A DNA stretch of 43,012 bases from a virus (taxonomy: Duplodnaviria; Caudoviricetes), in the IMG/VR virus record IMGVR_UViG_3300031260_000088, positions 1-43,012 of that record, one strand, 5' to 3'. A model generated the notes under the pieces. The model was given only the letters and a program-made list of their open reading frames with translations, was not told where the DNA came from and did not search any database. The position numbers were made by a program, and so were the translations under genes. Within the stretch, counting starts at the first letter, position 1, and each line of letters starts with the position of its first letter. Of the stretch, positions 4,759-43,012 are shown one piece after another.

Positions 4759-6897
4759 ATGAGCACTTACTTCATGTTGCTCACGACGATCGGCAAGGCC
4801 AAGCTGGCCAACGCCATGGCCAACGGCCAGCCGCTTGAGCTGACCGAGATGCGACTCGGGCAGGGCGACTACACGCCCTCTCAAGGGCAAACGTCGCTCA
4901 TTGCCCAGGTGTGGGCCGGGCCGCTCAGCTCTGTGCAGCAAGACCCCGAAAACCCAGGATGGGTCGTTGCCGAGCTGATTTTGCCCCCGGAAGTGGGCGG
5001 CTTCCTGATCCGCGAAGTCGGCGTTTTCGACAACGAGGGCGACCTGATCTTTGTCGGGAAATTTCCCGAGACGTACAAGCCTCTGCTCGAGGAGGGGAGC
5101 GGGAAGGATCTGGTCATCCGCGTCATTCTGGAGGTCGGCAACGCCTCGAGCGTCACCCTCACCATCGACCCATCGGTCGTACTCGCCAGCCGACAGTACG
5201 TCGATGAGCGCGGGGCGATCTACCGCGACGCCGCCAAGATGCACGCCGACCAGATTCTGGCGGAGCATCTCGGTAAGCGCCATCGCCCGCTGCTCCTCGT
5301 GCAGGGCAATCGCACGGCCGTGGCGGGGGATCGCTTCTGGGTCGATACGCGCCAGGGGGGCATTGTCGTGACGCTGCCCGAGCAGGCCGCCGCCAACGAT
5401 ACCGTGACCCTTGGCGACTACGCCGGGACGTGGGGCGAGTCCGCCGTGACCGTCGTGCGAAACGGGCACCGGATCAACGGGGCGGAGGAGGATCTGAATT
5501 TGTCGAGCTCCGGCGCGGTCGTGACGCTCGAATATGTCAACGCGGCGCAGGGGTGGAAAATCGCGTCGGGCACGGCCCACGGCGGCGGCGAGCTGGTGCG
5601 CCGCCCGGTCAACGTGTCGCCCGCGAATGGGGCGCTCGGCGTCTCGCCGCTGCCGACGCTGGAGGCTGGGGACTTTTACAGCACCTGGGGCGGCGTCGCC
5701 CATGCGGCGAGCCGGTTCCAGATCGCCACCGATGCCGGTTTCGCCAACATCGTCTACGACTCCGGCGTGCTGGGTGCGGTCACGAGCCATGTCGTCACCG
5801 ATCAACTTGATCCGATGGAGCACTTCTGGCGGGCGCAGTACGAATCAGCGCTGGGCGAGGCGTCCGAGTGGTCCGTGCCGACCTCGTTCGTCGCCGCCGC
5901 CGCCGCTGTGGCAGCACCGCAGATCACATCACCGCAAAACGACGCCACCGACATCCCCGAGCAGCCGGTGCTCGAAACCTCGGCGTTCAGCGTTCTGGGT
6001 GACGAAGACACCCACGCGTCTACCTCGTGGCGCATCCAGCAAGGCGGAGTGACTGTGTGGGAAGAACTGGGGGACGCCTCGAATCTGCTGAGCATCGTCG
6101 TCCCCGCAGAGATCCTGCAAGAAGGAACCGTCTACACCGTGCAGGCCCGGCACCACGGGCAGACCTACGGCGCATCCCCGTGGTCGTCGCCCGCCACCTT
6201 CACCACGTCCGCCCAGTTCATCCCCGCCGATGAGATCGGCGTCCCCTACGGCGGCGGCTACACCGCCGGCAAGATCGTCAGCGACGTCGACGGCGAGACG
6301 TACCTGATCATCGTCTCGGACGGCGGCGGTGACAGCTATCAGATGGGTGCTGGCACGAAACAGTGGCGCACCTCGAATACATCCGTCACGACCACCCCGG
6401 GTGTGCCGCCGATGACCTTGGCCGACGGTGCGGCCAACCACGCCGCCATGCGTGCTGCTGGGATCGCGAACTTCCCGGCCGCAAAGTGGATCGACGACGT
6501 CTGCAACGCCGGTGCGGGCCTCAACGGGCAGAGCGACTGGTACCTGCCCGCCCGCGACGAGCTCGAACTCCTCTACCGCAACGACAAGCCGACGACCGAC
6601 GCGAACAACACGGGCACGCGCACAACGTCGGGCTTCGGCGGCGACGGAGCGGTCCACGGCACGAACAACTCATCCGTGCCAACGGGGGCCGGATACACCG
6701 CAGGGAGTCCGGCACAGACGCAGATCGTCTCGTTCCGCACTGGCCAGCCGGACGCACTGTCGGCCAACCTCTACTGGTCGTCCACGGAGATCGACGCCAG
6801 CAACGCCTGGAGACAGGCCTTCAGCACTGGCAGCCAGTACAGCAGCAGTAAGACGAACACCTTCTATGTTCGAGCCGTCCGGAGAATTAAACTTTAA
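4759..6897 (+). CDS. Tail fibre / receptor-binding protein; DGR target with C-terminal CLec-fold (DUF1566/Lcl-like) domain
   Basis: P2 gpH-like N-terminus (GGFLIREVG, PETYKP); two FN3/Ig-like repeats; WYLP..DEL and YWSSTE..AW..F..G...YVRAVR; VR at the 3' end. Confidence 0.92.
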   Translation: MSTYFMLLTTIGKAKLANAMANGQPLELTEMRLGQGDYTPSQGQTSLIAQVWAGPLSSVQQDPENPGWVVAELILPPEVGGFLIREVGVFDNEGDLIFVGKFPETYKPLLEEGSGKDLVIRVILEVGNASSVTLTIDPSVVLASRQYVDERGAIYRDAAKMHADQILAEHLGKRHRPLLLVQGNRTAVAGDRFWVDTRQGGIVVTLPEQAAANDTVTLGDYAGTWGESAVTVVRNGHRINGAEEDLNLSSSGAVVTLEYVNAAQGWKIASGTAHGGGELVRRPVNVSPANGALGVSPLPTLEAGDFYSTWGGVAHAASRFQIATDAGFANIVYDSGVLGAVTSHVVTDQLDPMEHFWRAQYESALGEASEWSVPTSFVAAAAAVAAPQITSPQNDATDIPEQPVLETSAFSVLGDEDTHASTSWRIQQGGVTVWEELGDASNLLSIVVPAEILQEGTVYTVQARHHGQTYGASPWSSPATFTTSAQFIPADEIGVPYGGGYTAGKIVSDVDGETYLIIVSDGGGDSYQMGAGTKQWRTSNTSVTTTPGVPPMTLADGAANHAAMRAAGIANFPAAKWIDDVCNAGAGLNGQSDWYLPARDELELLYRNDKPTTDANNTGTRTTSGFGGDGAVHGTNNSSVPTGAGYTAGSPAQTQIVSFRTGQPDALSANLYWSSTEIDASNAWRQAFSTGSQYSSSKTNTFYVRAVRRIKL
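6751..6885 (+). repeat. DGR variable repeat (VR)
   Basis: 135-bp match to 7404-7538 with 15 mismatches, all opposite TR adenines. Confidence 0.97.
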
Positions 6898-6916
6898 CCT
6901 TTAAGGTTTTATTTAG

Positions 6917-7258
6917 ATGAAGACGACCGATCTGCCGATCTACCGCGTGACGTATCAGCTCTTGGAGCGCATCACGCAATATGCCCGCAATTTCCCCCGC
7001 GATATGAAACTCTCGCTGGCGACGCGACTGCAAGAGGAGTGCGTCGAGCTGGTGCTCAACGTGTACCGGGCCAACGTGACGCGGCAGGGGCGCAGGCAGT
7101 ACATCGGGGCCGTCTTGGAGAGGGTGAAGGTCGTGGAGCTGATGATCCGGCTGTGCCGCGACCTGCACCTGATCAGCATCAAGCAGTATGCCGCCGTGGC
7201 CGAGCTGACCGACCAGATCGGCCGTCAGGCCTACGGATGGCAGAAGTCGAGCGCATGA
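6917..7258 (+). CDS. avd: DGR accessory variability determinant (four-helix bundle)
   Basis: 113 aa, basic; LPIY..FPR..K..L...IGRQAYGW pattern; lies between VR and TR. Confidence 0.9.
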   Translation: MKTTDLPIYRVTYQLLERITQYARNFPRDMKLSLATRLQEECVELVLNVYRANVTRQGRRQYIGAVLERVKVVELMIRLCRDLHLISIKQYAAVAELTDQIGRQAYGWQKSSA

Positions 7259-7403
7259 CACCTGGCCGGAATGCGTGCGGGTCACGGCCCCGCGCAGTGA
7301 GCCATTTAATCTCGGGCCGCTCCCGCTGGGTTTCAGCGATAGGGCAAACGCCAGTTTCGCCATCCCCCGTATTGGGTGGCGCGACGTGTGAGTGAGCGGC
7401 TGT

Positions 7404-7538
7404 AACGCACTGACGGCCAACAACTACTGGTCGTCCACGGAGATCGACGCCAGCAACGCCTGGAGACAGAACTTCAACACTGGCAACCAGAACAGCAACA
7501 ATAAGACGAACAACAACTATGTTCGAGCCGTCCGGAAA
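7404..7538 (+). repeat. DGR template repeat (TR)
   Basis: Adenine-rich copy of VR with 13 AAY codons. Confidence 0.97.
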
Positions 7539-7550
7539 TTAAGGGGTGCC

Positions 7551-8657
7551 ATGTTCAGCCTCGACGAAATTTTTCAGGCCTATTTTGACTGCCGCAGCAA
7601 TAAGCGCAACACGCACACGGCCGTGCAGTTCGAACAGCGCCTGGAGCGTAACCTGATGCAGCTCTACCGCGACCTGAACGAGGGGAGCTACCGCATCGGC
7701 CGCTCGGTCTGTTTTGTGGTGACGCATCCCAAGTACCGCGAGGTGTGGGCCGCGAACTTTCGCGACCGCATCGTGCATCACCTGGTCTACAACAGCATCG
7801 CCGACCGCTTCTATCGGCGCTTCATCCACGACAGCTACGCCTGCATTCCGGGGCGCGGCGTCCTTTTCGGCGCAGAGCGCATCTACAAGCACATGCGAAG
7901 CGCCACCGAAAACTGGCAGCGCCGCGCCTGGTACCTGCAGGCCGATCTCGCCAACTTTTTCGTGAGCATCGACAAGGGTGTTCTCGAAGAACTGGTGCTA
8001 CGCCACGTCCCCGAGCCCGAGCTTCGCCGCCTGATCGCGCAGATCATCTGGCACGACCCGACGCCGAACCCCGTCCGGAACAGCCCCGACTATCTGTTCG
8101 CCTGCATGCCGCCGCACAAGAGCCTCTTTAACTGCGGCAAGCGCAGAGGCCTGCCGATCGGCAATTTGTCGAGCCAGTTTTTCGCCAACATCTACCTGGA
8201 CGCCCTCGACCAGTACGCCAAGCGCACGCTCAAGGTGCGCTGGTACGGCCGCTATGTCGACGACGTGGTGCTAATCGGGCACGATCCGGCAGAGCTGAAC
8301 GAGGCATTTGCGGCCCTCTCTCGCTTCGCCGAGGACCATCTGCACGTGCGCTTTCACCCGAAAAAGACGGTGCGAAACACCGTCGATTGCGGCATCAACT
8401 TCTGTGGACAGATCCTCAAGCCGTACCGCAAATACATCCGCTCGCGCACGGCGAGGTCAATGAAACGCGCCGCCGCCGATCCGGAGCGCCACACAGACCC
8501 GAAGCGCTGGGCGTCGCGGGTGAACAGCTACCTGGGACACTGCCGGCACGCGAACACTTATAGACTGCGCAAGCAACTGGCCATCGAGACCGGAGCCCGC
8601 TTCGCGCCGAACCTGACGAAAATCATCATTCCAAGGAGGACCCCATGCAATTCGTGA
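7551..8657 (+). CDS. DGR reverse transcriptase
   Basis: RDRIVHH, GLPIGNLSSQFFAN (DGR-type SQ) and RYVDD motifs; AAGGGG RBS before ATG 7551. Confidence 0.96.
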   Translation: MFSLDEIFQAYFDCRSNKRNTHTAVQFEQRLERNLMQLYRDLNEGSYRIGRSVCFVVTHPKYREVWAANFRDRIVHHLVYNSIADRFYRRFIHDSYACIPGRGVLFGAERIYKHMRSATENWQRRAWYLQADLANFFVSIDKGVLEELVLRHVPEPELRRLIAQIIWHDPTPNPVRNSPDYLFACMPPHKSLFNCGKRRGLPIGNLSSQFFANIYLDALDQYAKRTLKVRWYGRYVDDVVLIGHDPAELNEAFAALSRFAEDHLHVRFHPKKTVRNTVDCGINFCGQILKPYRKYIRSRTARSMKRAAADPERHTDPKRWASRVNSYLGHCRHANTYRLRKQLAIETGARFAPNLTKIIIPRRTPCNS

Positions 8658-9745: not shown

Positions 9746-10831
9746 TTATTCGGTATCGTTGGTTTTTTTAGTCGTTTTCCTGTCCACGGTCAGCCCTTTT
9801 TCAATGAGCTTTGCGAGCTTGGCCCCTTGTGTGGCGACGAATTCGCCGGCAATGTGGGTGTAGATCTCGGTGGTGCTGAGGTTGCTGTGCCCCATCATCT
9901 GCTGGACGGCTCGGGGGTCGACTTCGGCGAGGGCGGCGTGGGTGCCGTGGTCGTGGCGCAGCAGGTGGTGGTAGATGCGTTTGTCGACGTCGGCCCGGGC
10001 GGCGGCTTCCCGTAGCATGCTGCGGATGTCTTTGTAGGGCTGGCTGGTGACCGGGTTGATCCAGAGGTAGCCTTTGCCGTGTAGTTCGATGCGGGCGGCG
10101 AGTTCGTCTCGCAGACGCTGGGTGAGGATCGGGACCTGTCGCTCTTTGCCGCCTTTGCCGATGATGTGGATCACGCCGCGGGCGAGGTCGACCTGGTCGC
10201 CGCGGATGGTGAGGGCTTCGGCTCGCCGGAGCCCGGCATCGTAGAGCAGGAGGACGAGGCCGCGCTTGTGGGCGGGGATTTCGTCGATGATGGCTTGCAG
10301 CTCCTGGGGCGTGTGGACGGTGGGTGCCGGGCTCTTGGTCTGCTTTTTGGGGAAGCGTTTGATGCGGTAGGCCGCCGGCGGGATGTGCCGGTTTTCTTCG
10401 GCCCATTTGATGATGGCTGAGAGATAGGACAGTTCGCGGTTGATGGTGCGTTTTTTGACGCCTGCATCGAGGCGCTTGGCTTTGTACTGTTCGACCAGGG
10501 CCGGCCCAAGCTTGGCCATGGGGATTTTGCCGAAGGTGGTCTCGAGCTGTTTCCAGGCCCAATGGAAGTCGGTGATGGTGCCTTTGGTGACGTGGTTGCC
10601 GTAGTCGCGGAGAAACTCGGGGATTGCGTCAAGAAAGGTTGGTGATACGCAGGCGCCGACGCCGGGCTTGCTTTTGCCGCGCAGCTCCATTTCGGCGGCC
10701 CGGGCCTGGGCTTCGGTGCCGATGAAGGGAATGCGATCACGGGGGCCGTTGCGCCCCTGGAGGCGCACGTCGATGATGTATTCGCCGGGGATGGGCTTGC
10801 CGGAGTTGTCGAGCTTGGGGCGGACGGCCAT
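9746..10831 (-). CDS. int: Tyrosine recombinase / phage integrase
   Basis: GLRRAE, GKGGKER, HHLLRH and GHSNLSTTEIY catalytic motifs. Confidence 0.96.
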   Translation of the reverse strand: MAVRPKLDNSGKPIPGEYIIDVRLQGRNGPRDRIPFIGTEAQARAAEMELRGKSKPGVGACVSPTFLDAIPEFLRDYGNHVTKGTITDFHWAWKQLETTFGKIPMAKLGPALVEQYKAKRLDAGVKKRTINRELSYLSAIIKWAEENRHIPPAAYRIKRFPKKQTKSPAPTVHTPQELQAIIDEIPAHKRGLVLLLYDAGLRRAEALTIRGDQVDLARGVIHIIGKGGKERQVPILTQRLRDELAARIELHGKGYLWINPVTSQPYKDIRSMLREAAARADVDKRIYHHLLRHDHGTHAALAEVDPRAVQQMMGHSNLSTTEIYTHIAGEFVATQGAKLAKLIEKGLTVDRKTTKKTNDTE

Positions 10832-18846: not shown

Positions 18847-19164
18847 ATGATTTCCAATGATTTGCTGACGATGACCCTTTTTGGCTCAAAATCCCTGGCC
18901 CGGTTCTCCGATATCGATCAGAACCTCGAAATTCTCGCCGAAGAATGTGCCGAGGTGGTTCAGATCAAATCGAAGATCGTGCGCTTTGGGATGGATGACG
19001 TCTGGCCTGCTCGTGGGATGAGCAATCGGGAGGCTTTGGAACAGGAACTCGGCGATGTGCTCGTCCTGGTCGAGGTCCTGATTGGTAACGGCGTGCTCTC
19101 CCTGGAGGGCCTGATGGCCGCCAGGGACAGGAAAATCGAAAAGATGGGGGAGTGGTACCGGTGA
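18847..19164 (+). CDS. MazG-like NTP pyrophosphohydrolase
   Basis: LAEECAEV...LEQELGDVL (EExxE...ExxD). Confidence 0.75.
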   Translation: MISNDLLTMTLFGSKSLARFSDIDQNLEILAEECAEVVQIKSKIVRFGMDDVWPARGMSNREALEQELGDVLVLVEVLIGNGVLSLEGLMAARDRKIEKMGEWYR

Positions 19165-19196
19165 GGACGAACGGGGCGAGAAGAGCCAGAAGCGGC

Positions 19197-19454
19197 TCAG
19201 GGGCGCAGGTGTTTCGCTGTCTCCTCTGGCAGGGGTACGGCTACGGCATTTCCGTCGATCGGGGAAGGCGCGGGGATTTCGTCGCTGTCGTCGATCCGTC
19301 CGGCGATGGCTTCGGCCAAGCAGTCGGCCGCCATGTCCAGGGCCTCGACCGGGTCGCGGCCCGAGGTCAGCGCTTCGGGCAGATCGGGAAAGCTGACGAC
19401 GATTTCGCCCCCTTCCCGGGTCGGGATCGCGGGGTAGATTCTCTGGTCTTTCAT
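19197..19454 (-). CDS. hicB: HicB-like antitoxin (N-terminal domain only)
   Basis: YPAI....VSFPDLPEALTSG...EAL.MA.DCL...IPAPS. Confidence 0.8.
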   Translation of the reverse strand: MKDQRIYPAIPTREGGEIVVSFPDLPEALTSGRDPVEALDMAADCLAEAIAGRIDDSDEIPAPSPIDGNAVAVPLPEETAKHLRP

Positions 19455-19460
19455 CGGCGT

Positions 19461-19739
19461 TTACGCCACTCTCAGTTTGCAGCCGAGGGCCTTGGTCACC
19501 TTGTAGACGGTGGCGAAGTTCGGCCTGCCGTCCTCGGAAAGCGACTTGTACAGGCTGGCGCGGGTCACGCCGGCGGCCTTGGCCACCTCGGTCATGCCCC
19601 TGGCGCGGGCGGCGATGCTCAGCGCGTGGATGAAATCGCTCTCGTCTCCCGTATCGAGAGATTCCTGCAGAAACTCGCGAATATCTTCTTCGGTTTCGAG
19701 GTGTTCGGCGATGTCGAACGGTTTTGTTTTGACGGTCAT
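19461..19739 (-). CDS. Addiction module antidote (HI1420/HigA-type HTH)
   Basis: FDIAEHL...ARARGMTEVAKAAGVTRASLYKSLS..GRPNF. Confidence 0.9.
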   Translation of the reverse strand: MTVKTKPFDIAEHLETEEDIREFLQESLDTGDESDFIHALSIAARARGMTEVAKAAGVTRASLYKSLSEDGRPNFATVYKVTKALGCKLRVA

Positions 19740-19742
19740 GGG

Positions 19743-20042
19743 TCACTCCTCAAGGCTGTTCAAAAGATCCGTGGCTTTCGCGATGTCTTTGGCTTGGGTC
19801 GATTTGTCGCCACCGGCCAGCAGCAACACCACCTGGCCGTCGCGCAGGGTGTAATAAACGCGCAGGCCGCCTCCGAAGAAACAACGCAGCTCGAACAGTG
19901 TGGCGGAAATCTGCTTGAAATCGCCGAAATTTCCGTTTTCGACCCGCGCCAACCGGGACATCAAGCGGTTTTTAACCGACCGGTCTTTCAGCCCGGCCAG
20001 CCATTTGTCATACATTTCGGTGCTCGTCAGCGTGTATTTCAT
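19743..20042 (-). CDS. Addiction module killer toxin (RelE/HigB, HI1419-type)
   Basis: RL.R...GNFGD...ELR...G.RVYY...LLLAGGDKSTQ.KDI. Confidence 0.9.
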   Translation of the reverse strand: MKYTLTSTEMYDKWLAGLKDRSVKNRLMSRLARVENGNFGDFKQISATLFELRCFFGGGLRVYYTLRDGQVVLLLAGGDKSTQAKDIAKATDLLNSLEE

Positions 20043-20048
20043 GGGTTG

Positions 20049-20077
20049 ATTGTATCCCACAGGAAACAAAAACGCAA
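20049..20077 (-). promoter_or_regulatory. Sigma70 promoter for the TA operon (probably leaderless)
   Basis: TTGCGT-17-TACAAT ending 6 nt before the ATG; imperfect palindrome TGTATCC-N4-GGAAACA overlaps it. Confidence 0.65.
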
Positions 20078-20103
20078 CACAAAAACAGAAAAATCAAAAC
20101 CCC

Positions 20104-20132
20104 TTGACCTCCGCCTGGGTTTTGGCTATGCT
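20104..20132 (+). promoter_or_regulatory. Sigma70 promoter of the C4/antirepressor operon
   Basis: TTGACC-17-TATGCT. Confidence 0.75.
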
Positions 20133-20251
20133 TTCCCCGTTGCCGCAAAATCGGCAGCCGGGTTTGGAAGCCCGAATCAAGAGGCGGATGCCGCCACTGC
20201 GAAATCAGTGGTGTTTTTGCATCCAAAGCACGGCGTGTCTCCGTTTCGACT

Positions 20252-20323
20252 GGGCGGCCGTGCGGGAGGCCTTCGGGCCTGCCGGTTCCTCTTGACCGGT
20301 CTTCCAACCCGCACGGTCCGCCC
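20252..20323 (+). ncRNA. C4-like antisense RNA (P1 c4 / P4 CI family)
   Basis: Outer stem GGGCGGCCGTGCGGG/CCCGCACGGTCCGCCC and a UUCG hairpin; single-stranded CCTCTTGA and CTTCCAA complement sites upstream and downstream. Confidence 0.85.
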
Positions 20324-20381
20324 TTTTTGCGTTTGGAAGCGCGAAGGGGGCCTCGAAAACCCCGTCAAGAGGAGACCCGCC

Positions 20382-20849
20382 ATGCCCGAAGTCCGTCCCG
20401 TCCCCCCGTGTTCGCCCCCTGCCCGCTTCTCGTACCCCGCCGATTTCGTCCGCGATTATGCCGCGCCGGTGTTCGACCGACACGCCGCCTGCCCACAACT
20501 GTTCGCCGCCTGGTTCGACGGCGACGACCGGCTGCTTGGCCGGCAGACCCTCGCCCTTGGCCCCCTCGCGACCCGCCCCATCGATCTCAAGCGCCTCTGG
20601 TCCCTGGCCCGCGTTCCCGCCGGGGCGCGCTTCGTCGCCTTCGCCCGCAACGTGCCGGGGGTCGACCTGCCCGACCTGGACGACGCCCATGGGCGCACCC
20701 TGTCCCGTCTCGGCGAGCTGGCCCGGGGCGCCCGGCTGGGGCTGATCGATTACGTCCTGGTGGGGGATAAATATCTGCAAAGCGCCGCCTACCACCGCGA
20801 TCCCCGCTGTCGGGGCTGGCGGATTCACGGCCAAGGGAGCCCGTCGTGA
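20382..20849 (+). CDS. Degenerate RadC/JAB-domain protein
   Basis: L.A.W.D..DRLLG...G......D...LIDYVLVG layout of RadC; HNHPSG replaced by RNVPG. Confidence 0.6.
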   Translation: MPEVRPVPPCSPPARFSYPADFVRDYAAPVFDRHAACPQLFAAWFDGDDRLLGRQTLALGPLATRPIDLKRLWSLARVPAGARFVAFARNVPGVDLPDLDDAHGRTLSRLGELARGARLGLIDYVLVGDKYLQSAAYHRDPRCRGWRIHGQGSPS

Positions 20850-27515: not shown

Positions 27516-27755
27516 ATGAAAAACAAACTGATCGATCTGAACAATCATCTGTTCGCGCAGCTGGAACGCTTGAGCGACGAAGACAATGCCGGCGAGAAGC
27601 TCCAGGAGGAGATCGAACGGAGCAAGGCGGTCGGCTCGATAGCGCGGAACATTATCGACAACGCCCGGCTCGCCCTCGATGCCCAGAAGGCCCTGGGTGA
27701 TTCGGTGCGCACCCTGCCGGCGATGATCGGCATCGAGGACAAGGACCATGCGTAG
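27516..27755 (+). CDS. Conserved phage hypothetical protein
   Basis: MKNKL.DLNNHLFAQLERL...EI.RSKA pattern. Confidence 0.75.
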   Translation: MKNKLIDLNNHLFAQLERLSDEDNAGEKLQEEIERSKAVGSIARNIIDNARLALDAQKALGDSVRTLPAMIGIEDKDHA

Positions 27756-28488
27756 CTGGGCGCGAAAAAAGGTCAAGGCCAAGCTCGCCGCCCTGGCCGG
27801 AAAGCTCCAGGAGCGCCCGGAGAACGCCGTTACCCGCGACGGCCGGGGACTCATCCGGTGGACGCCGGAGCTGGTCGGATTCCTCCGTGAAAATTACCGG
27901 CGGTTGTCTCTCGCCGAGCTGACCGCCGCGTTCAATGCCCGCTTCGGCACGGCGATCCCGGAAACGACAATCCGCGGCACCTTGAGAAATCACCGGATCA
28001 GCTCGGGGCGAACGGGGCGATTCAACCCGGGCGGAACGCCTTGGAACCTCGGGAAGAGCGGCTACATGGGGGCGAATGAGACCAGCTTCGCGCCCGGGAA
28101 CATGCCGCACAACAAGCGCCGCCTATGGACGGAACGGACCACCGTGGACGGCTATGTCGAGATCAGCGTCCCGGAGCGCAACCCCCATACCGGCGCGGCG
28201 ACGCGCTTCCGTCTCAAGCATGTGTGGCTGTGGGAGGGGGAACACGGCAAGGTTCCGCCGGGGCATGCCGTGATTTTCAAGGATGGCGACCGGATGAACT
28301 GTGTCCTGGACAACCTGATGTTGGTCAGCCGTTCGGAATTGCTGTCGATGAACTTGCACGGCTACCGGGAAATGCCGGAGGAGGTCAAGCCGTCGGTGCT
28401 GGCCCTGGCGAAGATCGAGGCGAGGGCGGGTTTCAGGCTGCGGCCGGGCAGGAAGCGGGGGGAAGAGATATTGGAGGGAAGCCTGTAA
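27748..28488 (+). CDS. HNH endonuclease
   Basis: H..LWE..HG.VP.GH..IFKDGDR.N..LDNL; GRF..G..PWN.G. Confidence 0.85.
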   Translation: MRSWARKKVKAKLAALAGKLQERPENAVTRDGRGLIRWTPELVGFLRENYRRLSLAELTAAFNARFGTAIPETTIRGTLRNHRISSGRTGRFNPGGTPWNLGKSGYMGANETSFAPGNMPHNKRRLWTERTTVDGYVEISVPERNPHTGAATRFRLKHVWLWEGEHGKVPPGHAVIFKDGDRMNCVLDNLMLVSRSELLSMNLHGYREMPEEVKPSVLALAKIEARAGFRLRPGRKRGEEILEGSL

Positions 28489-28574
28489 CGCTTGAATTAA
28501 GCGGCGGCGGCACAGTGGTTTGCCGCGATAGCGGCGCGGACAGGTTCACCGTCCGCTTGAATGATTGGTTGTAA
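28483..28574 (-). mobile_element. Integron attC-type site 1
   Basis: + strand: TAAC-GCTTGA-ATTAAGC-GG-CGG...CCG[T]CC-GCTT[G]AAT-GATTG-GTT, the canonical bottom-strand fold with extrahelical G and T. Confidence 0.85.
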
Positions 28575-28612
28575 ATTAACCTGCGCTGGCCCAAAGGGCC
28601 ATAGGGGGCACA

Positions 28613-28867
28613 ATGGTGAAAGATTGCAGGACCTGCGACATTGGGAAACGCTGTGCGCTGGCCGGAACAAATGGTTCGTGCGGGAATTGGCGGCAGACCG
28701 CCTACTACTGCAAAAAATGTGGATTGAGGCACAGCAAGGGACCGGTGCCAATGCCATGCCGGAACTGTGGCGGGCAAATTTTTGAGCTGCGGAATACGGA
28801 TGGCAAAGACCAGACGGACGCAGAAAAGATGCTGCGCAAGGTCTACGGAGCTGAGAGCGCAGGTTGA
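28613..28867 (+). CDS. Cassette 1 gene: Cys-rich Zn-finger protein
   Basis: CRTC, CKKC and CRNC motifs; lies between attC1 and attC2. Confidence 0.65.
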   Translation: MVKDCRTCDIGKRCALAGTNGSCGNWRQTAYYCKKCGLRHSKGPVPMPCRNCGGQIFELRNTDGKDQTDAEKMLRKVYGAESAG

Positions 28868-28868
28868 T

Positions 28869-28972
28869 TTACAACGACCATGATAAGCGGCTGACCGCCG
28901 CAGGAAGGATCACCACCGAGATGACCGAGGACACGAACAGCCCCAACAGTCCGGTTGATTTACTGGTTAGCT
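28869..28972 (-). mobile_element. Integron attC-type site 2
   Basis: CAAC-GACCAT-GATAAGC-GG-CTG...CAG[T]CC-GGTT[G]ATT-TACTG-GTTAG. Confidence 0.75.
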
Positions 28973-29202
28973 TGCGCTGGTCGAAAGAGCCGCCGACTGA
29001 ACCTGGATGGTATTGGTACGAGGACGAATATTACGGGCCATGCCCCGTAGAGGTTGACTGGACCGGATTTATTAATAGACCAGAGGCAAGACAGCTTGAG
29101 GTGGTTCTTGCCTGTGGTGATGATTCGGATCAGCCGATTGGAGAGATTGCCAACCTGGGCGGAAAATGGGCAGGCCCTATTCAACAACCCGAAGCACCCT
29201 AA
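28921..29202 (+). CDS. Cassette 2 gene: hypothetical protein (W..E.PTEPGWYW)
   Basis: ATG lies inside the attC2 loop; TAA stop is part of CCCTAAC. Confidence 0.65.
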   Translation: MTEDTNSPNSPVDLLVSLRWSKEPPTEPGWYWYEDEYYGPCPVEVDWTGFINRPEARQLEVVLACGDDSDQPIGEIANLGGKWAGPIQQPEAP

Positions 29203-29254
29203 CGATTGAGTTAAGGTGCTGCATCAGACGCCCCGCTTGAGCGCCTGGTTGGGC
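29197..29254 (-). mobile_element. Integron attC-type site 3 (short)
   Basis: CTAAC-GATTGA-GTTAAG...CC-GCTT[G]AGC-GCCTG-GTTGGGC. Confidence 0.7.
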
Positions 29255-29270
29255 GCGGAAAGGATGTAGG

Positions 29271-29472
29271 ATGTACACGATAAACCAGGATTTTTTTGCA
29301 CAAGGCCATTGGGGAAATTATTGACAGGATAGAGGCTTGCGGTGCATCGCCGGCATTGACTCATGCTGTGACTTTGGCCGTAGACCTACAGCGCGCTATC
29401 GGAAACCAATATAACCCTGCTGACCCATACGCCCTTGTCAGGGTTGCGGCAGAGGTAGATCCGGGCGCCTAG
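29271..29472 (+). pseudogene. Cassette 3 gene frameshifted at a T7 run
   Basis: Removing one T from 29291-29297 gives a 66-aa ORF MYTINQDFLHKAIGEII...DPGA ending at the cassette boundary. Confidence 0.55.
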
Positions 29473-29494
29473 CAACCATTACCCCACCACCTTC

Positions 29495-29562
29495 GGCGTC
29501 AATTACATGGCCTCCATCGCTTTGTAATTGACGCCAGCCCTACACCAGCCCTACACCAGCCC
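29495..29562. promoter_or_regulatory. 13-bp inverted repeat plus 11-bp tandem repeat upstream of the head operon
   Basis: GGCGTCAATTACA-N15-TGTAATTGACGCC; CCAGCCCTACA about 2.6 copies. Confidence 0.5.
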
Positions 29563-29641: not shown

Positions 29642-29884
29642 ATGCCCGACGATTCCGGAATCACTCTCGCCGATGCCAAGTTGCAGCTGTCCCGGTGGCT
29701 CGCCGCCGACGCGGCGGTGTCGACCAGCCAGGCTTATGAATACGATGTCGACGGGGAGCGGCGCCGGTTGACCCGCGCCGACGCCGTCGAGATCCGCAAG
29801 AACGTCGAATACTGGAACGTCATGGTCCGCCGCCTCTCCGGGGCCGGCGGCATTCGTTTGTTTGGAGTCATTCCTCCCGCATGA
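29642..29884 (+). CDS. Head-tail joining protein (gpW-like)
   Basis: Q.Y......RRLTRAD..EI; directly before the portal gene. Confidence 0.75.
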   Translation: MPDDSGITLADAKLQLSRWLAADAAVSTSQAYEYDVDGERRRLTRADAVEIRKNVEYWNVMVRRLSGAGGIRLFGVIPPA

Positions 29885-31584
29885 ACCGTCCCGACGAAAA
29901 AGCCAACCGGCCGGGCTTGTTTTCCGGACTGTCCCGGGGGATCGATCGCGTGATCGAAACCCTGGCTCCGGTGTATGGCGCCCGGCGCATGAGCGCCCGG
30001 ATGACCATGGCGATGGCGGCGGACATGTTCGGTGGTGGCGGCGGCTTCGATGGGGCGGATCGGTCGAGTCTGGATATGGGCTCGTGGACTCCCTTCCCCA
30101 CCGACGCCGACAGCGCGGTCATCTTCGGGTTGGAAGACATGCGCTCCCGCGCTCGGGACGCGGATCGCAATCAGCCGATCGCGCGCGGCCTGGTCAACAC
30201 GACCGTGATCAACACCGTCGGCGTCGGGCTGACCATGCAGAGCCGGATCGACCGCGACGTTCTGGGGTTGAGCGATGCCGAGGCCGACAACTGGCAGCGG
30301 CATGCCGAGCGGCGGTGGCATCTATGGGCCGGTTCGAAGGATTGCGACCTGGAGCGCAAGCTTTCGTTCAATGGCCACCTGCAACTGGCTTTGCGAAGCC
30401 GCTGTGTCAATGGCGAGGCGCTGATCCTGCTGCCTATTGTCCCCCTGCCGCACCTGTCCAACCCGCTGCGGCTCCAGGCGGTCGAGTCCGACCGCCTCAG
30501 CAACCCGGGTCGATGTCCGGACGGCAGCGGCCTGGTCGGCGGGATCAAGAAGGATCAATACGGCGCTCCGCTGTCGTACTGCATCATGCGCGGTCACCCG
30601 GGGAATGTCCTCTATGCCGACCCTCAGCGTTGGGAGTGGGATGAGTACCCCGCCTACAACCCGCAAACCGGGCTCCCCAATGTGCTGCATTACTTCCGCA
30701 GCGAGCGCCCGGGGCAGTCCCGGGGGTTCCCTATGGTGGCGCCGATCATGGAGCCGCTCAAGGACCTCTCGCGGATGAGCAAAGCCGAGCTCAAGCGGGC
30801 CGTGGTTTCCGCCCTGTTCACCGTGTTTCTCAAGGGGACCGGCGGCAAGGGCATGGGGAACATGCCCCCGGGGTTCGGCGGTCCGGCCATGTATCCCGGC
30901 GGGATGAGCGTGGCGACCGGAGCGGGCGAGCAGAGCGCCGCCACGACCGGCAACATCAAGCTGGGATACGGCGCCGTGGTCGACCTGGGGGATTCCGGCC
31001 AGGAGATTCAGCTGGCCGATCCGAAGCTGCCCAACGTGAATTTTGACCCGTTCTTCCTGGCCAATGTCCGGCAGATAGGCATGGCCACCGGCATACCCTA
31101 CGAGGTGGTCATCAAGCACTACACCGCCTCGTACAGCGCCGCCAAGGCAGCCATGGAGGATGCCTACCGGTATTTCCTCTTCGAGCGAGCCAGCGTGGTC
31201 GATGACGTCTGCAAGATCGTCTATGCCGTGTGGATGGCGCAGGAGGTTGCCCAGGGGTCGATCTACGCCCCGGGGTTCTTCGCCGATCCGATGATTCGCG
31301 CCGCCTGGCTCGGCAGCGAGTGGATCGGCCCGAAAAAGCCGATACTCGACGAGGAAAAGGCGATCGATGCCGCCGGCAAGCGGGTCGCTCTCGGGGTATC
31401 GACCGGGGCGCAGGAGACGGCGGAGCTGAACGGCGGCGACTGGGAGACCAACATCAAGCAGCGCGGGCGGGAGATACGGATGATGGAAGCCGAAGGGCTT
31501 GCGGAGACGGCTCCGGCCCGGAGTAGCGCGCGAGGCGGGGAGGAACAAGACCCGGACCTGCCCGAAACGGAGGATGTCGCATGA
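29881..31584 (+). CDS. Portal protein, lambda family
   Basis: RSRARD..RN, RPGQSRG.P and YS..KAA motifs. Confidence 0.93.
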   Translation: MNRPDEKANRPGLFSGLSRGIDRVIETLAPVYGARRMSARMTMAMAADMFGGGGGFDGADRSSLDMGSWTPFPTDADSAVIFGLEDMRSRARDADRNQPIARGLVNTTVINTVGVGLTMQSRIDRDVLGLSDAEADNWQRHAERRWHLWAGSKDCDLERKLSFNGHLQLALRSRCVNGEALILLPIVPLPHLSNPLRLQAVESDRLSNPGRCPDGSGLVGGIKKDQYGAPLSYCIMRGHPGNVLYADPQRWEWDEYPAYNPQTGLPNVLHYFRSERPGQSRGFPMVAPIMEPLKDLSRMSKAELKRAVVSALFTVFLKGTGGKGMGNMPPGFGGPAMYPGGMSVATGAGEQSAATTGNIKLGYGAVVDLGDSGQEIQLADPKLPNVNFDPFFLANVRQIGMATGIPYEVVIKHYTASYSAAKAAMEDAYRYFLFERASVVDDVCKIVYAVWMAQEVAQGSIYAPGFFADPMIRAAWLGSEWIGPKKPILDEEKAIDAAGKRVALGVSTGAQETAELNGGDWETNIKQRGREIRMMEAEGLAETAPARSSARGGEEQDPDLPETEDVA

Positions 31585-34512: not shown

Positions 34513-34899
34513 ATGGCAAACAAGAAGACATTGACCTGTGAGGTCCTGGCGACGGTCAAGGGCTTGGATCCCCAGAGGCCCAGGGAGTACACCCATGCCG
34601 GGGGACAGGACAACCCCACCTTGGTGGAGCTGCCAGACAACCAGGCCACCCGTGGATTGATCGACTCGGGGGCCGTGCGGATCTACCCGGGCCCCAAAGT
34701 CTCCGAAACTCCCGGTGTCGCCCTGAAACCGGCCGACCTCAAGAGTCTGCGCAAGGCCGAGGAGTTCCTTGGGTCGATCATCGCCCGCTATGAAAAAGAG
34801 ATTGAAGGCGTGACCGACGAAGCCTATGTCGCCGAGATCAAGGGAAAGATGTCCGAGGCCGAAGCCGACCTGTCGACCGTTCGCGAACTGCTCAAGTAA
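34513..34899 (+). CDS. Hypothetical head-associated protein
   Basis: AGGAG RBS; follows the capsid gene. Confidence 0.7.
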   Translation: MANKKTLTCEVLATVKGLDPQRPREYTHAGGQDNPTLVELPDNQATRGLIDSGAVRIYPGPKVSETPGVALKPADLKSLRKAEEFLGSIIARYEKEIEGVTDEAYVAEIKGKMSEAEADLSTVRELLK

Positions 34900-34911
34900 C
34901 CGGCGTGTATT

Positions 34912-34949
34912 CCCCGGGGATGCCTCTCTCCCCTCCCCGGGTCTTTTTG
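34912..34949 (+). terminator. Probable intrinsic terminator
   Basis: CCCGGGGA...TCCCCGGG stem followed by TCTTTTT. Confidence 0.5.
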
Positions 34950-34964
34950 AGGTGAGGGGCCGGC

Positions 34965-35207
34965 ATGACGATGGACGTATTTTGGGTGGCGCTGCTCAGC
35001 GCGGGTGCCGGTTGGGGGGTTCCTCGTCTGTTGACCCGGGTGATCGGAACCCGGTATCGCACCGAGCGCGATTGCCACGCCTGCGACACCCGGAGGGCGG
35101 TGCGAGACATCCTGAAGATGGTCCAGGAGCTGGCGATCAAGGCCGGGGTTCCGGTGCACGAGGCGCTGAAGGTCGGCGCCGATCTGGGGTCCAACGACAA
35201 GAGGTGA
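34965..35207 (+). CDS. Putative holin/antiholin
   Basis: N-terminal transmembrane segment; first gene of the lysis cassette. Confidence 0.5.
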   Translation: MTMDVFWVALLSAGAGWGVPRLLTRVIGTRYRTERDCHACDTRRAVRDILKMVQELAIKAGVPVHEALKVGADLGSNDKR

Positions 35208-35209
35208 TT

Positions 35210-35785
35210 ATGGATTCGTTGACCATTTTTCGTGAAATCATTCGTAGGAACGAGCTCGGGGGCGACCTGTCCCACGCTTATCGGTTCTCCGACCCGGACG
35301 GCGTGCGCAGCGGTAAAAGCGGGTGGAGTTTCGGCCTGTGTCAGTTCGATGTCGCCAACAACCCATCCGCCGTGCTGTGCCTTCGCGAATGCCAGTTCAC
35401 TACCGATGAGATTCTGGGATTGAAGCGACAGGATGTCGACATCGTTCCTCTTAATCGGAAGCTCGCCTGTAACACCCGCACGGTCGACCGATGGGATGAC
35501 CGGCAACTGTTCGAGTGCCTAACCCATGCCTCGGAAGTCTGCCGGGCCTCCGGGATCCGCTTCGCCTCCGATGAGGTGCTGTTCCACCTGGCCGATTACC
35601 ATAACCAGTTCTACCTCTCCCGGGGCGGGAAGATGCACCAGTTTCTGTTGGGCGTTGGGCGCCCCGTCACGGCGCAAGACATCCTGATCTTCAAGCTCGG
35701 CCTGGCTTGGGGGAAGAAGCGCCCCGACGATGTTCACCGGCGCTTTTCCAATATTCGCAACGTTTGGGTGGAGAACTTCGCATGA
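35210..35785 (+). CDS. Putative endolysin (atypical)
   Basis: Position between membrane proteins and spanins; NE.GG...SGWSFGLCQFD lysozyme-like motif. Confidence 0.55.
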   Translation: MDSLTIFREIIRRNELGGDLSHAYRFSDPDGVRSGKSGWSFGLCQFDVANNPSAVLCLRECQFTTDEILGLKRQDVDIVPLNRKLACNTRTVDRWDDRQLFECLTHASEVCRASGIRFASDEVLFHLADYHNQFYLSRGGKMHQFLLGVGRPVTAQDILIFKLGLAWGKKRPDDVHRRFSNIRNVWVENFA

Positions 35786-40887: not shown

Positions 40888-41027
40888 GCGCGGAAGACTG
40901 CCGACGGCTGATTCTGGTTATGGCAGACGTGACGGGGTGGTCCCTTGCCGAGTTCCTCGATATGGATCTCGACGACCTGGTGACGTGGTACGAATCCGCG
41001 AAAACAGTTCACAGAAGAAGCTCGTAA
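40875..41027 (+). CDS. gpE' -1 frameshift extension
   Basis: -1 frame encodes ...MADVTGWSLAEFLDMDLDDLVTWYESA, P2 E'-like. Confidence 0.8.
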   Translation, partial: FFVISAEDCRRLILVMADVTGWSLAEFLDMDLDDLVTWYESAKTVHRRSS

Positions 41028-41202
41028 CGGCTCGGCTCGGGGTCCAGAGCAGCCAACCGAAAATCAGGCCGATCGCCACGCCCTGACCGAAAGAGAACCC
41101 TTGGTCGAACAGCCCGAGGAACCATGCGCATGTCAGGGTGAGGGCGACGGTCGTCGCGATCGTCAGAATGGACTGAGCTTGAACAAGAGGGTGTTTCGGC
41201 AT
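40918..41202 (-). CDS. Antisense two-TM membrane protein (possible moron)
   Basis: Two hydrophobic helices; fills the gap between gpE' and the tape measure gene. Confidence 0.45.
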   Translation of the reverse strand: MPKHPLVQAQSILTIATTVALTLTCAWFLGLFDQGFSFGQGVAIGLIFGWLLWTPSRAVTSFFCELFSRIRTTSPGRRDPYRGTRQGTTPSRLP

Positions 41203-43012
41203 GGATAAAAATCTCGCTATTGGGTTTGCGATTGGCGGAACGATCACCGCGACGTTCCGCCAAGCCATGAACACCAGTATAGCAAAGATCGATTCTCTTG
41301 GGAAAGAGATCGCCGGCCTCAACGCCCAAGGGAAGAACCTGTCTTTGTTCAAGACCATGAAGCGGGAGCTTCCCCAGGCAGAACAAGCATGGAAGGAAGC
41401 GACCAGTCGGGTCGCGGCCCTTTCTCGGGAGATGGCGAAGTCTGAAAAACCATCCAAGGCCCTGGTCAGAGATTTTGAGCAAGCCAAAAACGCGGCTGTA
41501 AAAGCCAAAGCGGCCTACGAAAGAAAGCGAGAAGCATTGCATAAGGTCCGGTCCGAGTTGGATCGGACCGGAATTTCGACCAAGGATTTGGTCTCTGGTC
41601 AGACCAAGCTGCAATCGGCGCTTAAGAAAACCCAGGCGCAATACGCGGCGCTCAGCAGAAATCAGCAGGCCTTGACGGCTAATAGTGCTCGGCGGGGTGA
41701 ACTCCGAGGGCAGATGGTCGATGCCGTCGCCCTGGCGGCGTCGCTTGGGGCACCGATAAAAGCCGCCATCGGATTTGAGTCGGCCATGGCCGACGTGCGC
41801 AAGGTCGTTAATTTCCCCGAACCTGACGGCCTGAAAAAATTCGGTTCCCAACTCAAGGCCATGAGCCGGGAAATTCCCATCTCAGCCGAAGGATTGGCAC
41901 AGATCGCCGCAGCAGGTGGGCAGTTGGGAATCGCGGCGGGCGACCTTGGTGCATTTACAGACACCGTCGCCAAAATGTCCACGGCTTTCGATATGGCTCC
42001 CGATGAGGCCGGGGACGCCATGGCCAAGCTTTCCAATATCTTTCAGATCCCCATCGGCGAAATGGCCGGCCTCGGGGACGCCATCAACCACCTCTCCGAC
42101 AACACCGCCGCCAAGGCGCGCGATATTGTCCCTGTCCTCGCCCGGGTCGGCGGAACGGCAAAGCAGTTTGGTTTATCCGCTGTCCAGGTGGCGGCCCTCG
42201 GGGATGCCTTCATTGCCCTGGGCAAGCCGCCGGAAGTTGCCGCGACGGCCATCAACGCCATGTTGCTCAAGCTTCAGACGGCGACAAGGCAGGGAAAGCC
42301 GTTCCAGTTGGGATTGGACGCAATGGGCGTCTCGGCGAGAGAGCTTGAGAACTCTATCGCCAAAGACGGACAAGCGGCGCTGATCGGGTTTCTTGAGCAG
42401 TTGTCGGCCATCGACGGCCAGGAGCGGGCCGGGATTCTTTCCGACCTCTTCGGTCTTGAATACGCTGACGATATTTCTTTGCTGGCCGGGTCGCTGGATC
42501 AGTATCGCAAAGCGCTTGGGTTGGTGGGTGACAAGACTAAATATGCCGGATCGATGCAGCGCGAGTTCGAAAACCGGAGGGAAACGACTGAAAACGGGCT
42601 CAATCTGCTGAAAAACAGCGTGACTGAGTTGGGCATCAATATCGGGTCGGTCCTGTTGCCAGCGGTCAATACAATCGCGAAGGTCTTCACCTCGGGAAGC
42701 GTCGTTTTGGCGGACATGTCCGAAAGATTCCCGCGCTTGACTGCGGTCTTGACTGGCGTGGCGGCGGGGCTTGTCGCGACCAAGGTCGCTGCAATCGGCC
42801 TGGGCTACGCATGGACCTTTGTGAAGGGTGGCGCGTTGGTTCTTAATGGCATGCTGGCTCGCATGGGGATCATCCTTTCGTGGACCACGATCAAGACCGC
42901 TCTGTTGGCCACCGCGCAGAAAGCCTGGGCGATCGGGTCGGCGGTGGTAACGGCGGCGACGGCGGCGATTTCAACAGGGTTCCGGGCGATGGGGGTTGCG
43001 GTGATGAGTAAC
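41201..43012 (+). CDS. Tape measure protein (TP901 family), N-terminal part; 781 aa in total across the junction
   Basis: GAGGG RBS; AIGFESAMADVRKVV and GDAINHLSDN motifs; continues to 675. Confidence 0.92.
   Translation, partial: MDKNLAIGFAIGGTITATFRQAMNTSIAKIDSLGKEIAGLNAQGKNLSLFKTMKRELPQAEQAWKEATSRVAALSREMAKSEKPSKALVRDFEQAKNAAVKAKAAYERKREALHKVRSELDRTGISTKDLVSGQTKLQSALKKTQAQYAALSRNQQALTANSARRGELRGQMVDAVALAASLGAPIKAAIGFESAMADVRKVVNFPEPDGLKKFGSQLKAMSREIPISAEGLAQIAAAGGQLGIAAGDLGAFTDTVAKMSTAFDMAPDEAGDAMAKLSNIFQIPIGEMAGLGDAINHLSDNTAAKARDIVPVLARVGGTAKQFGLSAVQVAALGDAFIALGKPPEVAATAINAMLLKLQTATRQGKPFQLGLDAMGVSARELENSIAKDGQAALIGFLEQLSAIDGQERAGILSDLFGLEYADDISLLAGSLDQYRKALGLVGDKTKYAGSMQREFENRRETTENGLNLLKNSVTELGINIGSVLLPAVNTIAKVFTSGSVVLADMSERFPRLTAVLTGVAAGLVATKVAAIGLGYAWTFVKGGALVLNGMLARMGIILSWTTIKTALLATAQKAWAIGSAVVTAATAAISTGFRAMGVAVMSN
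42872..43012 (+). repeat. 141-bp direct terminal repeat identical to 1-141 (circular assembly overlap)
   Basis: ATCCTTTCGTGG...GATGAGTAAC occurs at both ends, inside the tape measure gene. Confidence 0.97.

What the first reader, a model, noticed from the sequence alone, without database searches (positions are those of the whole stretch)
28483..29473. Phage-borne array of three integron attC cassettes with inverted genes and no IntI
Seen in sequence: three attC-like hairpins with R and L boxes, 6/5-nt spacers and an extrahelical G (plus an extrahelical T in sites 1 and 2). The + strand corresponds to the attC bottom strand. Each cassette's ends complement each other, as expected for a circular intermediate: GTTGTAAAT/ATTTACAAC, GTTAGCTTGC/GCACCCTAAC and GTTGGGCGC/GCGCCTAGC. 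Cassettes are 28489-28874, 28875-29202 and 29203-29472. Removing all three restores GCCTGTAA|CAACC, a GTT target at the HNH stop codon. All genes point opposite to the usual cassette orientation, so they are co-directional with the phage operon, and their stop codons lie in or beside the R boxes. Established: IntI recombines attC bottom strands and can use secondary GWT sites. Inference: this is a phage-adapted cassette system for gaining and shuffling small genes, using a host IntI or another recombinase in trans. I cannot confirm novelty without a search.
Basis: partly seen in the sequence, partly recalled or inferred. Interest (0 to 1): 0.9.

Follow-up and report, generated by a model that had tools for sequence, protein, structure and literature searches.

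The report
Back-to-front integron cassettes in a phage
This temperate phage carries three small integron-type gene cassettes built back to front (the folding recombination site sits in front of each gene, on the coding strand); two of them turn up with different neighbours in related DNA, joined at the integron cut point, so phages likely shuffle their own mirror-image cassette pool with an integron integrase borrowed from elsewhere.

Summary
Confirmed except for the right-hand boundary. The window is a 43-kb temperate myophage with no IntI. Three attC sites (28483-28574, 28869-28972, 29197-29254) score 43.7, 19.6 and 36.6 bits against a model built from bacterial integron sites, all on +, which is the bottom strand and also the coding strand. 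In five other metagenome runs (four studies), cassettes 1 and 2 have other neighbours, with breaks within 4 bases of AA|C and each gene keeping its UPSTREAM attC. The predicted empty site was not seen; relatives rejoin at 29487, not 29473. The layout is general. With one search pattern, 46 of 56 viral sites had the reversed layout against 13 of 171 bacterial sites. Some phages carry a full IntI downstream of reversed arrays. Two phage attC sites that Qi et al. 2023 showed IntI1 recombines are of the reversed type, which their text does not note. Phage attC clusters are published; nine literature searches found no description of the reversed polarity. This scan has noted the class before on other DNA (33 notes). 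Recombination by IntI here is inferred, not shown.

The parts
27748..28488 (+). HNH endonuclease gene (246 aa); its TAA stop supplies the AA of the first crossover AA|C
   Evidence: PHROG 1891 E 8e-57; Pfam HNH_3; run X2 carries a different attC-like arm straight after this stop
28483..28574 (+). attC1, bottom strand on +; crossover 28488|28489, GTT at 28568; extrahelical G and T; long loop
   Evidence: 43.7 bits with R1; likeness to the aadA7 bottom strand; run X5 has a similar arm before a different gene
28489..28874 (+). cassette 1 (386 bp): attC1 followed by gene 1; ends complementary over 19 of 20 bases
   Evidence: X3 holds 28486-28875 with 0 differences between other neighbours; in X7 it starts at 28489 and ends at 28876
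28613..28867 (+). gene 1, 84-aa cysteine-rich protein (CxxC pairs, possibly zinc-binding); function unknown
   Evidence: only weak hits: DUF7129 E 0.03, rubrerythrin-like E 0.009; no PHROG hit; no homologue search was run
28869..28972 (+). attC2, degenerate; crossover 28874|28875, GTT at 28966; loop holds a ribosome-binding site and an in-frame ATG at 28921
   Evidence: 19.6 bits; X9 substitutions give AAGGAG before the ATG; X4 has a 12-base in-frame deletion near 28960
28875..29202 (+). cassette 2 (328 bp): attC2 plus gene 2
   Evidence: X9 (25-kb contig) holds 28873-29205 between other neighbours; X2 28873-29205 and X4 28874-29206
28921..29202 (+). gene 2, 93 aa, predicted to start inside attC2 and ending at the TAA of the next junction; family of small hypothetical proteins
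   Evidence: 8 homologues, 53-81% identity; P0001-P0004 share the peptide encoded by the attC right arm, P0006 and P0008 begin after it; translation
29197..29254 (+). attC3, short, imperfect stem; crossover 29202|29203, GTT at 29248; a competing hairpin spans the left junction
   Evidence: 36.6 bits; competing hairpin
29203..29472 (+). putative cassette 3 (270 bp); right junction reads AG|C and is not confirmed
   Evidence: 7 of 9 end complementarity; no laid run other than the probable source covers its gene
29271..29472 (+). gene 3, about 66 aa in relatives; here out of frame in a run of seven T at 29291-29297 (real or an assembly error)
   Evidence: 8 homologues; P0009 is 97% identical and reads through as 66 aa
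29473..29486 (+). 14 bases between the putative right junction and the conserved right flank; differ in relatives
   Evidence: X2, X3, X5 and X6 rejoin at 29487; no likeness to 12 intI-upstream regions
29642..31584 (+). head-tail adaptor and portal genes, right flank of the array
   Evidence: PHROG 118 and 21
9746..10831 (-). the phage's own tyrosine integrase; not an IntI
   Evidence: TIGR02249 93 bits against cut-off 265; lacks the IntI-specific insertion; nearest named homologue Geoalkalibacter sp., 65%

Best explanation
The stretch is a short array of reversed integron cassettes, each an attC site followed by its own gene on the attC bottom strand, which are swapped at the AA|C point, likely by an integron integrase (IntI) supplied in trans by the host or by another phage. 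SHOWN: the sites match bacterial integron attC; the bottom strand is the coding strand; cassettes 1 and 2 occur with other neighbours, bounded at AA|C and keeping their upstream attC; this phage has no IntI; the same polarity dominates other phage contigs, some with a full IntI at the downstream end. INFERRED: single-stranded coding-strand DNA folds at the attC; IntI cuts between A and C of the left R box; recombination between neighbouring attCs releases a circle whose own complementary ends close the stem; the circle re-inserts at another attC, at a phage attI or at a secondary site. Because the cut point falls in TAA|C on the coding strand, insertions land after stop codons, leave the upstream gene whole, and the new gene is predicted to be read from the phage's own operon promoter, sometimes from a start codon inside the attC loop. 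SPECULATIVE: the polarity would keep host cassettes (many are anti-phage) antisense in a phage array and phage cassettes antisense behind a host Pc promoter.
For: Model hits on + only. Strand fixed by the published aadA7 bottom strand. Breakpoints in runs X2, X3, X4, X7, X9 (four studies) within 4 bases of AA|C, with another attC-like arm following the gene in X3, X4, X7 and X9. Same pattern, downstream gene on the bottom strand: 46 of 56 viral sites (6 opposite, 4 no call) against 13 of 171 bacterial sites (133 opposite, 25 no call); 4 of 5 of those bacterial genomes tested have IntI over the cut-off. Between adjacent sites, the longer ORF is on the bottom strand in 81 of 117 viral and 6 of 123 bacterial intervals. 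PHROG hits for 15 of 58 bottom-strand ORFs and 0 of 58 opposite ORFs. In 114 phage sites the extrahelical G is kept in 107, and 11 of 14 pairs show changes on both sides. PH101 attC1 and attC2, recombined by IntI1 in Qi et al., lie on the gene strand. Full IntI (427-447 bits, cut-off 265) in 4 of 8 viral loci, 3 of them with a visible reversed array upstream.
Against: No recombination assay on these sites. No circle junction and no empty site in 8 runs (contigs drop rare forms). Right boundary unproven, with an AG|C junction and no attI likeness. The full attC fold is not the minimum-energy fold in place (+ strand z -2.0, 0.1, -1.7), and modelled circles of cassettes 2 and 3 are no more stable than the linear forms. 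Two junctions in relatives are non-canonical (AG|C in X7, GA|C in X4). Among shared segments of viral loci only 6 of 18 internal ends fall at AA|C (one pair counted twice), 2 in the right arm and 10 elsewhere. The host is unknown, so host IntI is untested. P12002L attC1, also on the gene strand, failed the IntI1 assay. R1 was trained on sites picked with a pattern drawn from attC1, and alignment A3 is fitted to R1.
Confidence: 0.72

Rival explanations
1. The array is a frozen remnant of a once complete phage integron that lost intI and attI; the cassettes moved in the past but no longer move in this phage.
For: Complete reversed phage integrons exist, several with truncated intI (L264, L267, L268). 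Sites 2 and 3 are degenerate, gene 3 is out of frame, the right junction is AG|C.
Against: Cassette 1 is identical over 390 bases in X3 and cassette 2 differs at 4 of 333 bases in X2, in other contexts, so exchange is recent. No intI remnant or attI likeness at the right flank. 0 of 49 attC-bearing viral records have IntI over the cut-off, and 0 of the 8 near-complete ones have any match.
Confidence: 0.1
2. The attC-like sites act as short shared boundary sequences exchanged by homologous or illegitimate recombination, with no site-specific enzyme.
For: Near-identical attCs precede different genes (L004-L007; X5). Two shared segments begin inside the right arm (L044/L077, L249/L252).
Against: Left ends in X2, X3, X4, X7 and X9 sit within 3 bases of the cut point with unrelated DNA beyond. 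The extrahelical G and compensatory stem changes are conserved. Each cassette's own ends covary: 0.85 against 0.57 shuffled for positions 4-7. Homology alone does not need these features.
Confidence: 0.09
3. The recombinase is not an IntI but the phage's own tyrosine integrase or a Xer-like enzyme.
For: The phage encodes a tyrosine integrase. Earlier scan notes describe reversed arrays beside Xer-like recombinases in other phages (unchecked).
Against: The integrase lies about 18 kb away beside repressor-like genes, scores 93 against 265 bits, and lacks the IntI insertion. 45 of 49 attC-bearing viral records had no match to the IntI profile even at E 0.001 (many are fragments). These sites belong to the attC family that sits beside true IntI in bacteria and phages.
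Confidence: 0.06
4. The hairpins are RNA elements (terminators or translation leaders) that only resemble attC.
For: They lie between co-directional genes, and some hold ribosome-binding sites.
Against: No Rfam family (best E 3.3). Breakpoints at AA|C and own-end complementarity are properties of DNA recombination.
Confidence: 0.02

Closest known systems
CALINs in phage genomes (Qi et al. 2023, PMC9892861; main text and first part of the supplement read, figures not seen)
   Same: Two or more attC sites on one strand in a phage with no integrase; small phage genes and DNA methylases as cargo; five of six tested sites recombined by IntI1.
   Different: Their text does not mention gene polarity relative to the bottom strand and calls PH101 typical. 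Checked here: TJE1 is classical; PH101, ctTUS972 and P12002L attC1 are reversed. They found 17 clusters in 10,705 genomes and suggested illegitimate capture; this locus shows exchange at the cut point.
Classical integron cassettes and attC (aadA7, VCR; Bouvier et al. 2009, PMC2727003; Cury et al. 2016, PMC4889954; passages read)
   Same: [quoted passage not shown]
   Different: The classical unit is gene then attC, with the gene on the top strand and transcribed opposite to intI. Here the unit is attC then gene on the bottom strand; no intI, attI or Pc; the start codon can lie in the attC loop; cassette 1 pairs over 19 of 20 bases.
SALINs and attG secondary-site insertion (Loot et al., bioRxiv 10.1101/2022.09.11.507474; passages read)
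   Same: IntI inserts cassettes at GWT sites outside integrons, which could found such an array.
   Different: Described for ordinary cassettes in bacterial chromosomes, with no strand bias. Here insertion points coincide with stop codons on the coding strand, and the founding site was not observed.
Complete phage-borne integrons with reversed arrays (loci L262, L265, L266; found here, after a lead from earlier scan notes)
   Same: Same attC family, same polarity, last gene ending in TAA|C.
   Different: They carry intI downstream and co-directional, with a conserved attI-like stretch before it; this phage has neither.

Membership tests
integron attC site | AAC and GTT at the boundaries, R and L boxes with spacers | tested here: met
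   site 2 has one L-box mismatch and site 3 an imperfect inner stem
integron attC site | extrahelical G (and T) on the R''-L'' arm of the bottom strand | tested here: met
   G in 3 of 3 sites, T in 2 of 3; G in 107 of 114 phage sites
integron attC site | [quoted passage not shown] | tested here: met
   breakpoints within 4 bases of AA|C at three junctions in five runs; comparative evidence, not an assay
integron attC site | bottom strand folds into the recombinogenic hairpin | tested here: inconclusive
   not the minimum-energy fold in place; the cassette 1 circle closes a long R stem at -34.8 kcal/mol
integron attC site | recombined by IntI with bottom-strand preference | not testable with these tools
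   needs an assay; two reversed-type PH101 sites pass it in Qi et al.
integron attC site | hit by the IntegronFinder or HattCI attC model | not testable with these tools
   those models are not on hand; own model R1 used instead
classical gene cassette | gene on the top strand, upstream of its own attC | tested here: not met
   genes on the bottom strand; each gene travels with its upstream attC
classical gene cassette | own ends (R'' and R') complementary | tested here: met
   19 of 20, 7 of 10 and 7 of 9 bases
classical gene cassette | free circular intermediate | tested here: inconclusive
   no circle joint in 8 runs of assembled contigs, which drop rare forms
CALIN | two or more attC sites on one strand within 4 kb, no intI | tested here: met
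   three sites in 772 bases; no IntI; definition in Cury et al.
complete integron | intI gene | tested here: not met
complete integron | attI site | tested here: inconclusive
   right flank no closer than shuffles to 12 intI-upstream regions, and the phage attI-like motif is absent; the host's attI is unknown

The most novel reading that the evidence does not exclude
Phages of proteobacteria and Desulfobacterota keep a large mirror-image cassette pool that shares the integron recombinase but not the cassettes of their hosts. Reversed polarity makes TAA|C stop codons the natural insertion and capture points, so new cassettes are made from ordinary phage genes. It also keeps host defence cassettes silent in phage operons. 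A phage-specific IntI lineage serves integrase-less phages like this one in trans. This would be a general site-specific mechanism for phage accessory-gene mosaicism and a tractable model for how gene cassettes are born.
Probability: 0.35. Interest if true: 0.9.

Novelty: new variant of a known kind. Interest (0 to 1): 0.72.

Why it matters
How phages gain and swap small accessory genes, and how integron cassettes are first made, are both open questions (the second is named as open in PMC8618304). A reversed cassette class gives a site-specific route for the first and a test bed for the second, since near-identical attCs are joined to different genes and long complementary ends are written de novo. 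It also matters for annotation: pairing each attC with the gene before it assigns the wrong gene in these phages. This locus adds near-identical cassettes in other neighbourhoods, which fixes which attC belongs to which gene.

Tried and rejected
No close full-length relative of the phage was found: HNH gave 1 viral locus at 52%; portal gave 2 viral loci at 54-59%, none in genome contigs and 4 of 401 Desulfobacterota-sample genomes at 36-39%; the adaptor gave 14 metagenome loci. R1 found no attC in the 13 of these loci searched, so the array is not a fixed feature of this phage group. Rfam: no family. BLAST of attC1 against plasmids and of a viral attC against named phages gave nothing useful. 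A strict scanner for shared cassettes gave one informative pair, L249/L040, with upstream attC identity 1.0 and downstream 0.5. No tblastx match between 117 viral and 123 bacterial intervals (small sample). Top-strand (G|TT) crossover rejected: no right-hand end of a shared segment fell there and relatives keep the upstream attC. No structure or complex prediction was run. The host was not identified. My ORF caller is a crude composition score, so single calls can be wrong; PHROG hits were used as the independent check. Bacterial controls are dominated by Methylophilaceae, and the scan stopped at 20 of 64 parts. The 17 viral records were chosen mostly for having many sites.

Full report
Setting. 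The window is the whole record: a 43-kb temperate phage with contractile-tail genes, lambda-like head genes, a tyrosine integrase, repressor-like genes and a diversity-generating retroelement. The finding lies between an HNH gene (27748-28488) and the head-tail adaptor (29642), in a stretch of lower GC (0.54-0.57 against about 0.63). The integrase's nearest named homologue is from Geoalkalibacter sp. (65%), so a Desulfobacterota host is likely but not shown.

The sites. Each reads AAC, a 6-base spacer, an L arm, a loop, an L arm with an unpaired G, a 5-base spacer and GTT on the + strand. A covariance model built from 34 attC sites of bacterial genomes finds all three on + at 43.7, 19.6 and 36.6 bits, and nothing else in the window above 10.6 bits. 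Those training sites were picked with a pattern drawn from attC1, so the test is not fully independent. They are real integron sites, however: 4 of 5 source genomes tested carry IntI over the cut-off, in three cases beside the array. The strand is settled by the aadA7 bottom strand printed in Qi et al.'s supplement, which shares 17 and 10 bases with the two arms of attC1 on +. Against efficient recombination in place: the full fold is not the minimum-energy structure at any site. Only cassette 1 gains clearly when modelled as a circle (-34.8 against -23.6 kcal/mol; cassettes 2 and 3 do not).

The genes. All three are on +. Gene 2 has 8 homologues and an in-frame ATG with a ribosome-binding site inside the attC2 loop; four homologues carry the peptide encoded by the attC right arm. 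Gene 3 has 8 homologues and is out of frame here in a T run. Gene 1 is cysteine-rich with only weak family hits. No function can be assigned to any of them.

The mobile unit. Eight of 22 listed runs were laid on the region; X1 is probably the source and is set aside. At 28488|28489, X2 continues from the HNH stop into a different attC-like arm, X3 enters cassette 1 at 28486 after 549 other bases, and X7 enters at 28489. At 28874|28875, X3 and X7 leave cassette 1 into other attC-like arms, while X2, X4 and X9 enter cassette 2 from unrelated DNA. At 29202|29203, X4 and X9 leave cassette 2 into other attC-like arms within 4 bases; X5 leaves at 29214. X9 shows both ends on one 25-kb contig. These five runs come from four studies. 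The unit is therefore attC plus the gene after it, cut at AA|C, which is the bottom-strand R' position (Bouvier et al.). The right end is not confirmed: X2, X3, X5 and X6 rejoin only at 29487, the empty site was never seen, and no circle joint appeared. The window's last junction is AG|C, as is the one before cassette 1 in X7 (GNT-type secondary sites are recalled, from no call); X4 has GA|C.

How general. A first pattern found four viral contigs with nearly the same attC, an ATG in its loop, and a different gene after each. A wider pattern gave 61 viral and 138 bacterial stretches (the bacterial scan stopped at 20 of 64 parts). After removing duplicates, the downstream gene was on the bottom strand at 46 of 56 viral sites (6 opposite, 4 no call) and at 13 of 171 bacterial sites (133 opposite, 25 no call). 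R1 found up to 26 sites per viral record. In 20 stretches of 17 records chosen mostly for many sites, the longer ORF lay on the bottom strand in 81 of 117 intervals, against 6 of 123 in bacterial arrays. For every second viral interval, 15 of 58 bottom-strand ORFs and 0 of 58 opposite ORFs hit PHROG families, several of them DNA methyltransferases. Three records (G034, G046, G024) have arrays on both strands, each following its gene strand. Own-end complementarity exceeds shuffles in both pools (viral 0.85 against 0.57 and 0.56 against 0.33). Stems covary in 114 phage sites (0 of 500 shuffles reach the score; alignment fitted to the model). Against a pure site-specific picture, only 6 of 18 internal ends of shared segments fell at AA|C.

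The enzyme. The phage's integrase is not an IntI, and 0 of 49 attC-bearing viral records have one over the cut-off. One record held an IntI fragment. Following it, and a lead from earlier scan notes, gave 8 viral loci, 4 with full IntI (427-447 bits), and a fifth by tblastn. In L262, L265 and L266 the intI lies downstream of a reversed array and reads the same way; L263 has too little upstream DNA to tell. A conserved attI-like stretch begins at the last gene's TAA|C. The intI-to-attC geometry is thus classical and only the genes are turned round. The window's right flank shows no likeness to these or to bacterial intI-upstream regions. IntI in trans, from the host or another phage, is the most economical reading; which source applies here is open.

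Why reversed. Two ideas, both inferred. First, the cut point sits in TAA|C on the coding strand, so insertions fall after stop codons and join the phage operon (23 of 56 viral sites have the upstream stop exactly there by my caller). For genes co-oriented with replication, the bottom strand would also lie on the lagging-strand template, which favours folding (Loot et al. 2017). Second, host cassettes, many of them anti-phage (search listings only), would be antisense in such an array. One gene family occurs in both polarities (TJE1 orf3, 60% to a reversed cassette), so the two pools are not sealed.

Literature. Qi et al. 2023 (main text and supplement part 1 of 2 read, figures not seen) report phage CALINs and IntI1 activity on five of six sites but do not discuss polarity in the text. 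On checking their phages, TJE1 is classical, while PH101, ctTUS972 and P12002L attC1 are reversed. Both PH101 sites passed their assay; P12002L attC1 failed. For Loot et al. (bioRxiv 2022.09.11.507474), Loot 2017, Bouvier 2009, Cury 2016 and Ghaly 2021 I read passages only. Nine searches returned no paper describing reversed cassettes as a phage class; the library lacks most subscription journals. This scan's own notes record the class in at least 33 other genomes and none on this genome or sequence; they are unchecked and were used only as leads.

Verdict. A real, recently exchanged, integrase-less array of reversed attC cassettes. It meets the CALIN definition and fails the classical cassette polarity: a new variant of a known kind. 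Interest 0.72; confidence in IntI-in-trans 0.72.

Noticed in passing
window 4759-8657: Diversity-generating retroelement: Avd (6917-7258), reverse transcriptase (7392-8657), VR 6752-6883 in the tail fibre gene and TR 7405-7536; all 13 differences lie at TR adenines.
   Followed up: partly
window 29533-29560; L010 216-236; L002 just before 7650: Short tandem repeats just upstream of the head-tail adaptor gene in this phage and two relatives, with a different unit in each; possibly a late-promoter or packaging feature.
   Followed up: no
window 29193-29220: A strong hairpin spans the cassette 2/attC3 junction and competes with the attC3 fold; it looks like a template-switch change of the attC3 left arm.
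   Followed up: partly
window 28566-28600 and 28964-28991: The 25 bases after attC1 and attC2 are 80% alike (D7), suggesting the two cassettes share a leader beyond the R box.
   Followed up: no
L261 8001-8390 (G045): An N-terminal intI fragment lies inverted relative to its reversed array, breaking at the GATAAC motif near the intI start; a rearrangement or a mis-assembly.
   Followed up: partly
L262, L263, L265, L266, L281: Phage-borne full IntI genes (68-74% alike among the four aligned) preceded by a conserved attI-like stretch with repeated GATAAC/CTAAC motifs overlapping the start of intI.
   Followed up: partly
L240-L242 (G034): A 58.5-kb provirus with 26 attC sites in arrays on both strands, each following its gene strand.
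   Followed up: partly
L236 77-1520 (phage TJE1): Classical-polarity cassettes that carry typical phage genes; orf3 is 60% identical to a reversed cassette in G044.
   Followed up: partly
L002 36-1770: A related phage (portal 54%) also appears to carry Avd and reverse transcriptase genes (read by eye).
   Followed up: no
window 19152-20849, 34826-35785, 41009-41851: Long ORFs with no PHROG or NCBIfam hit; the first two also have no Pfam hit.
   Followed up: no
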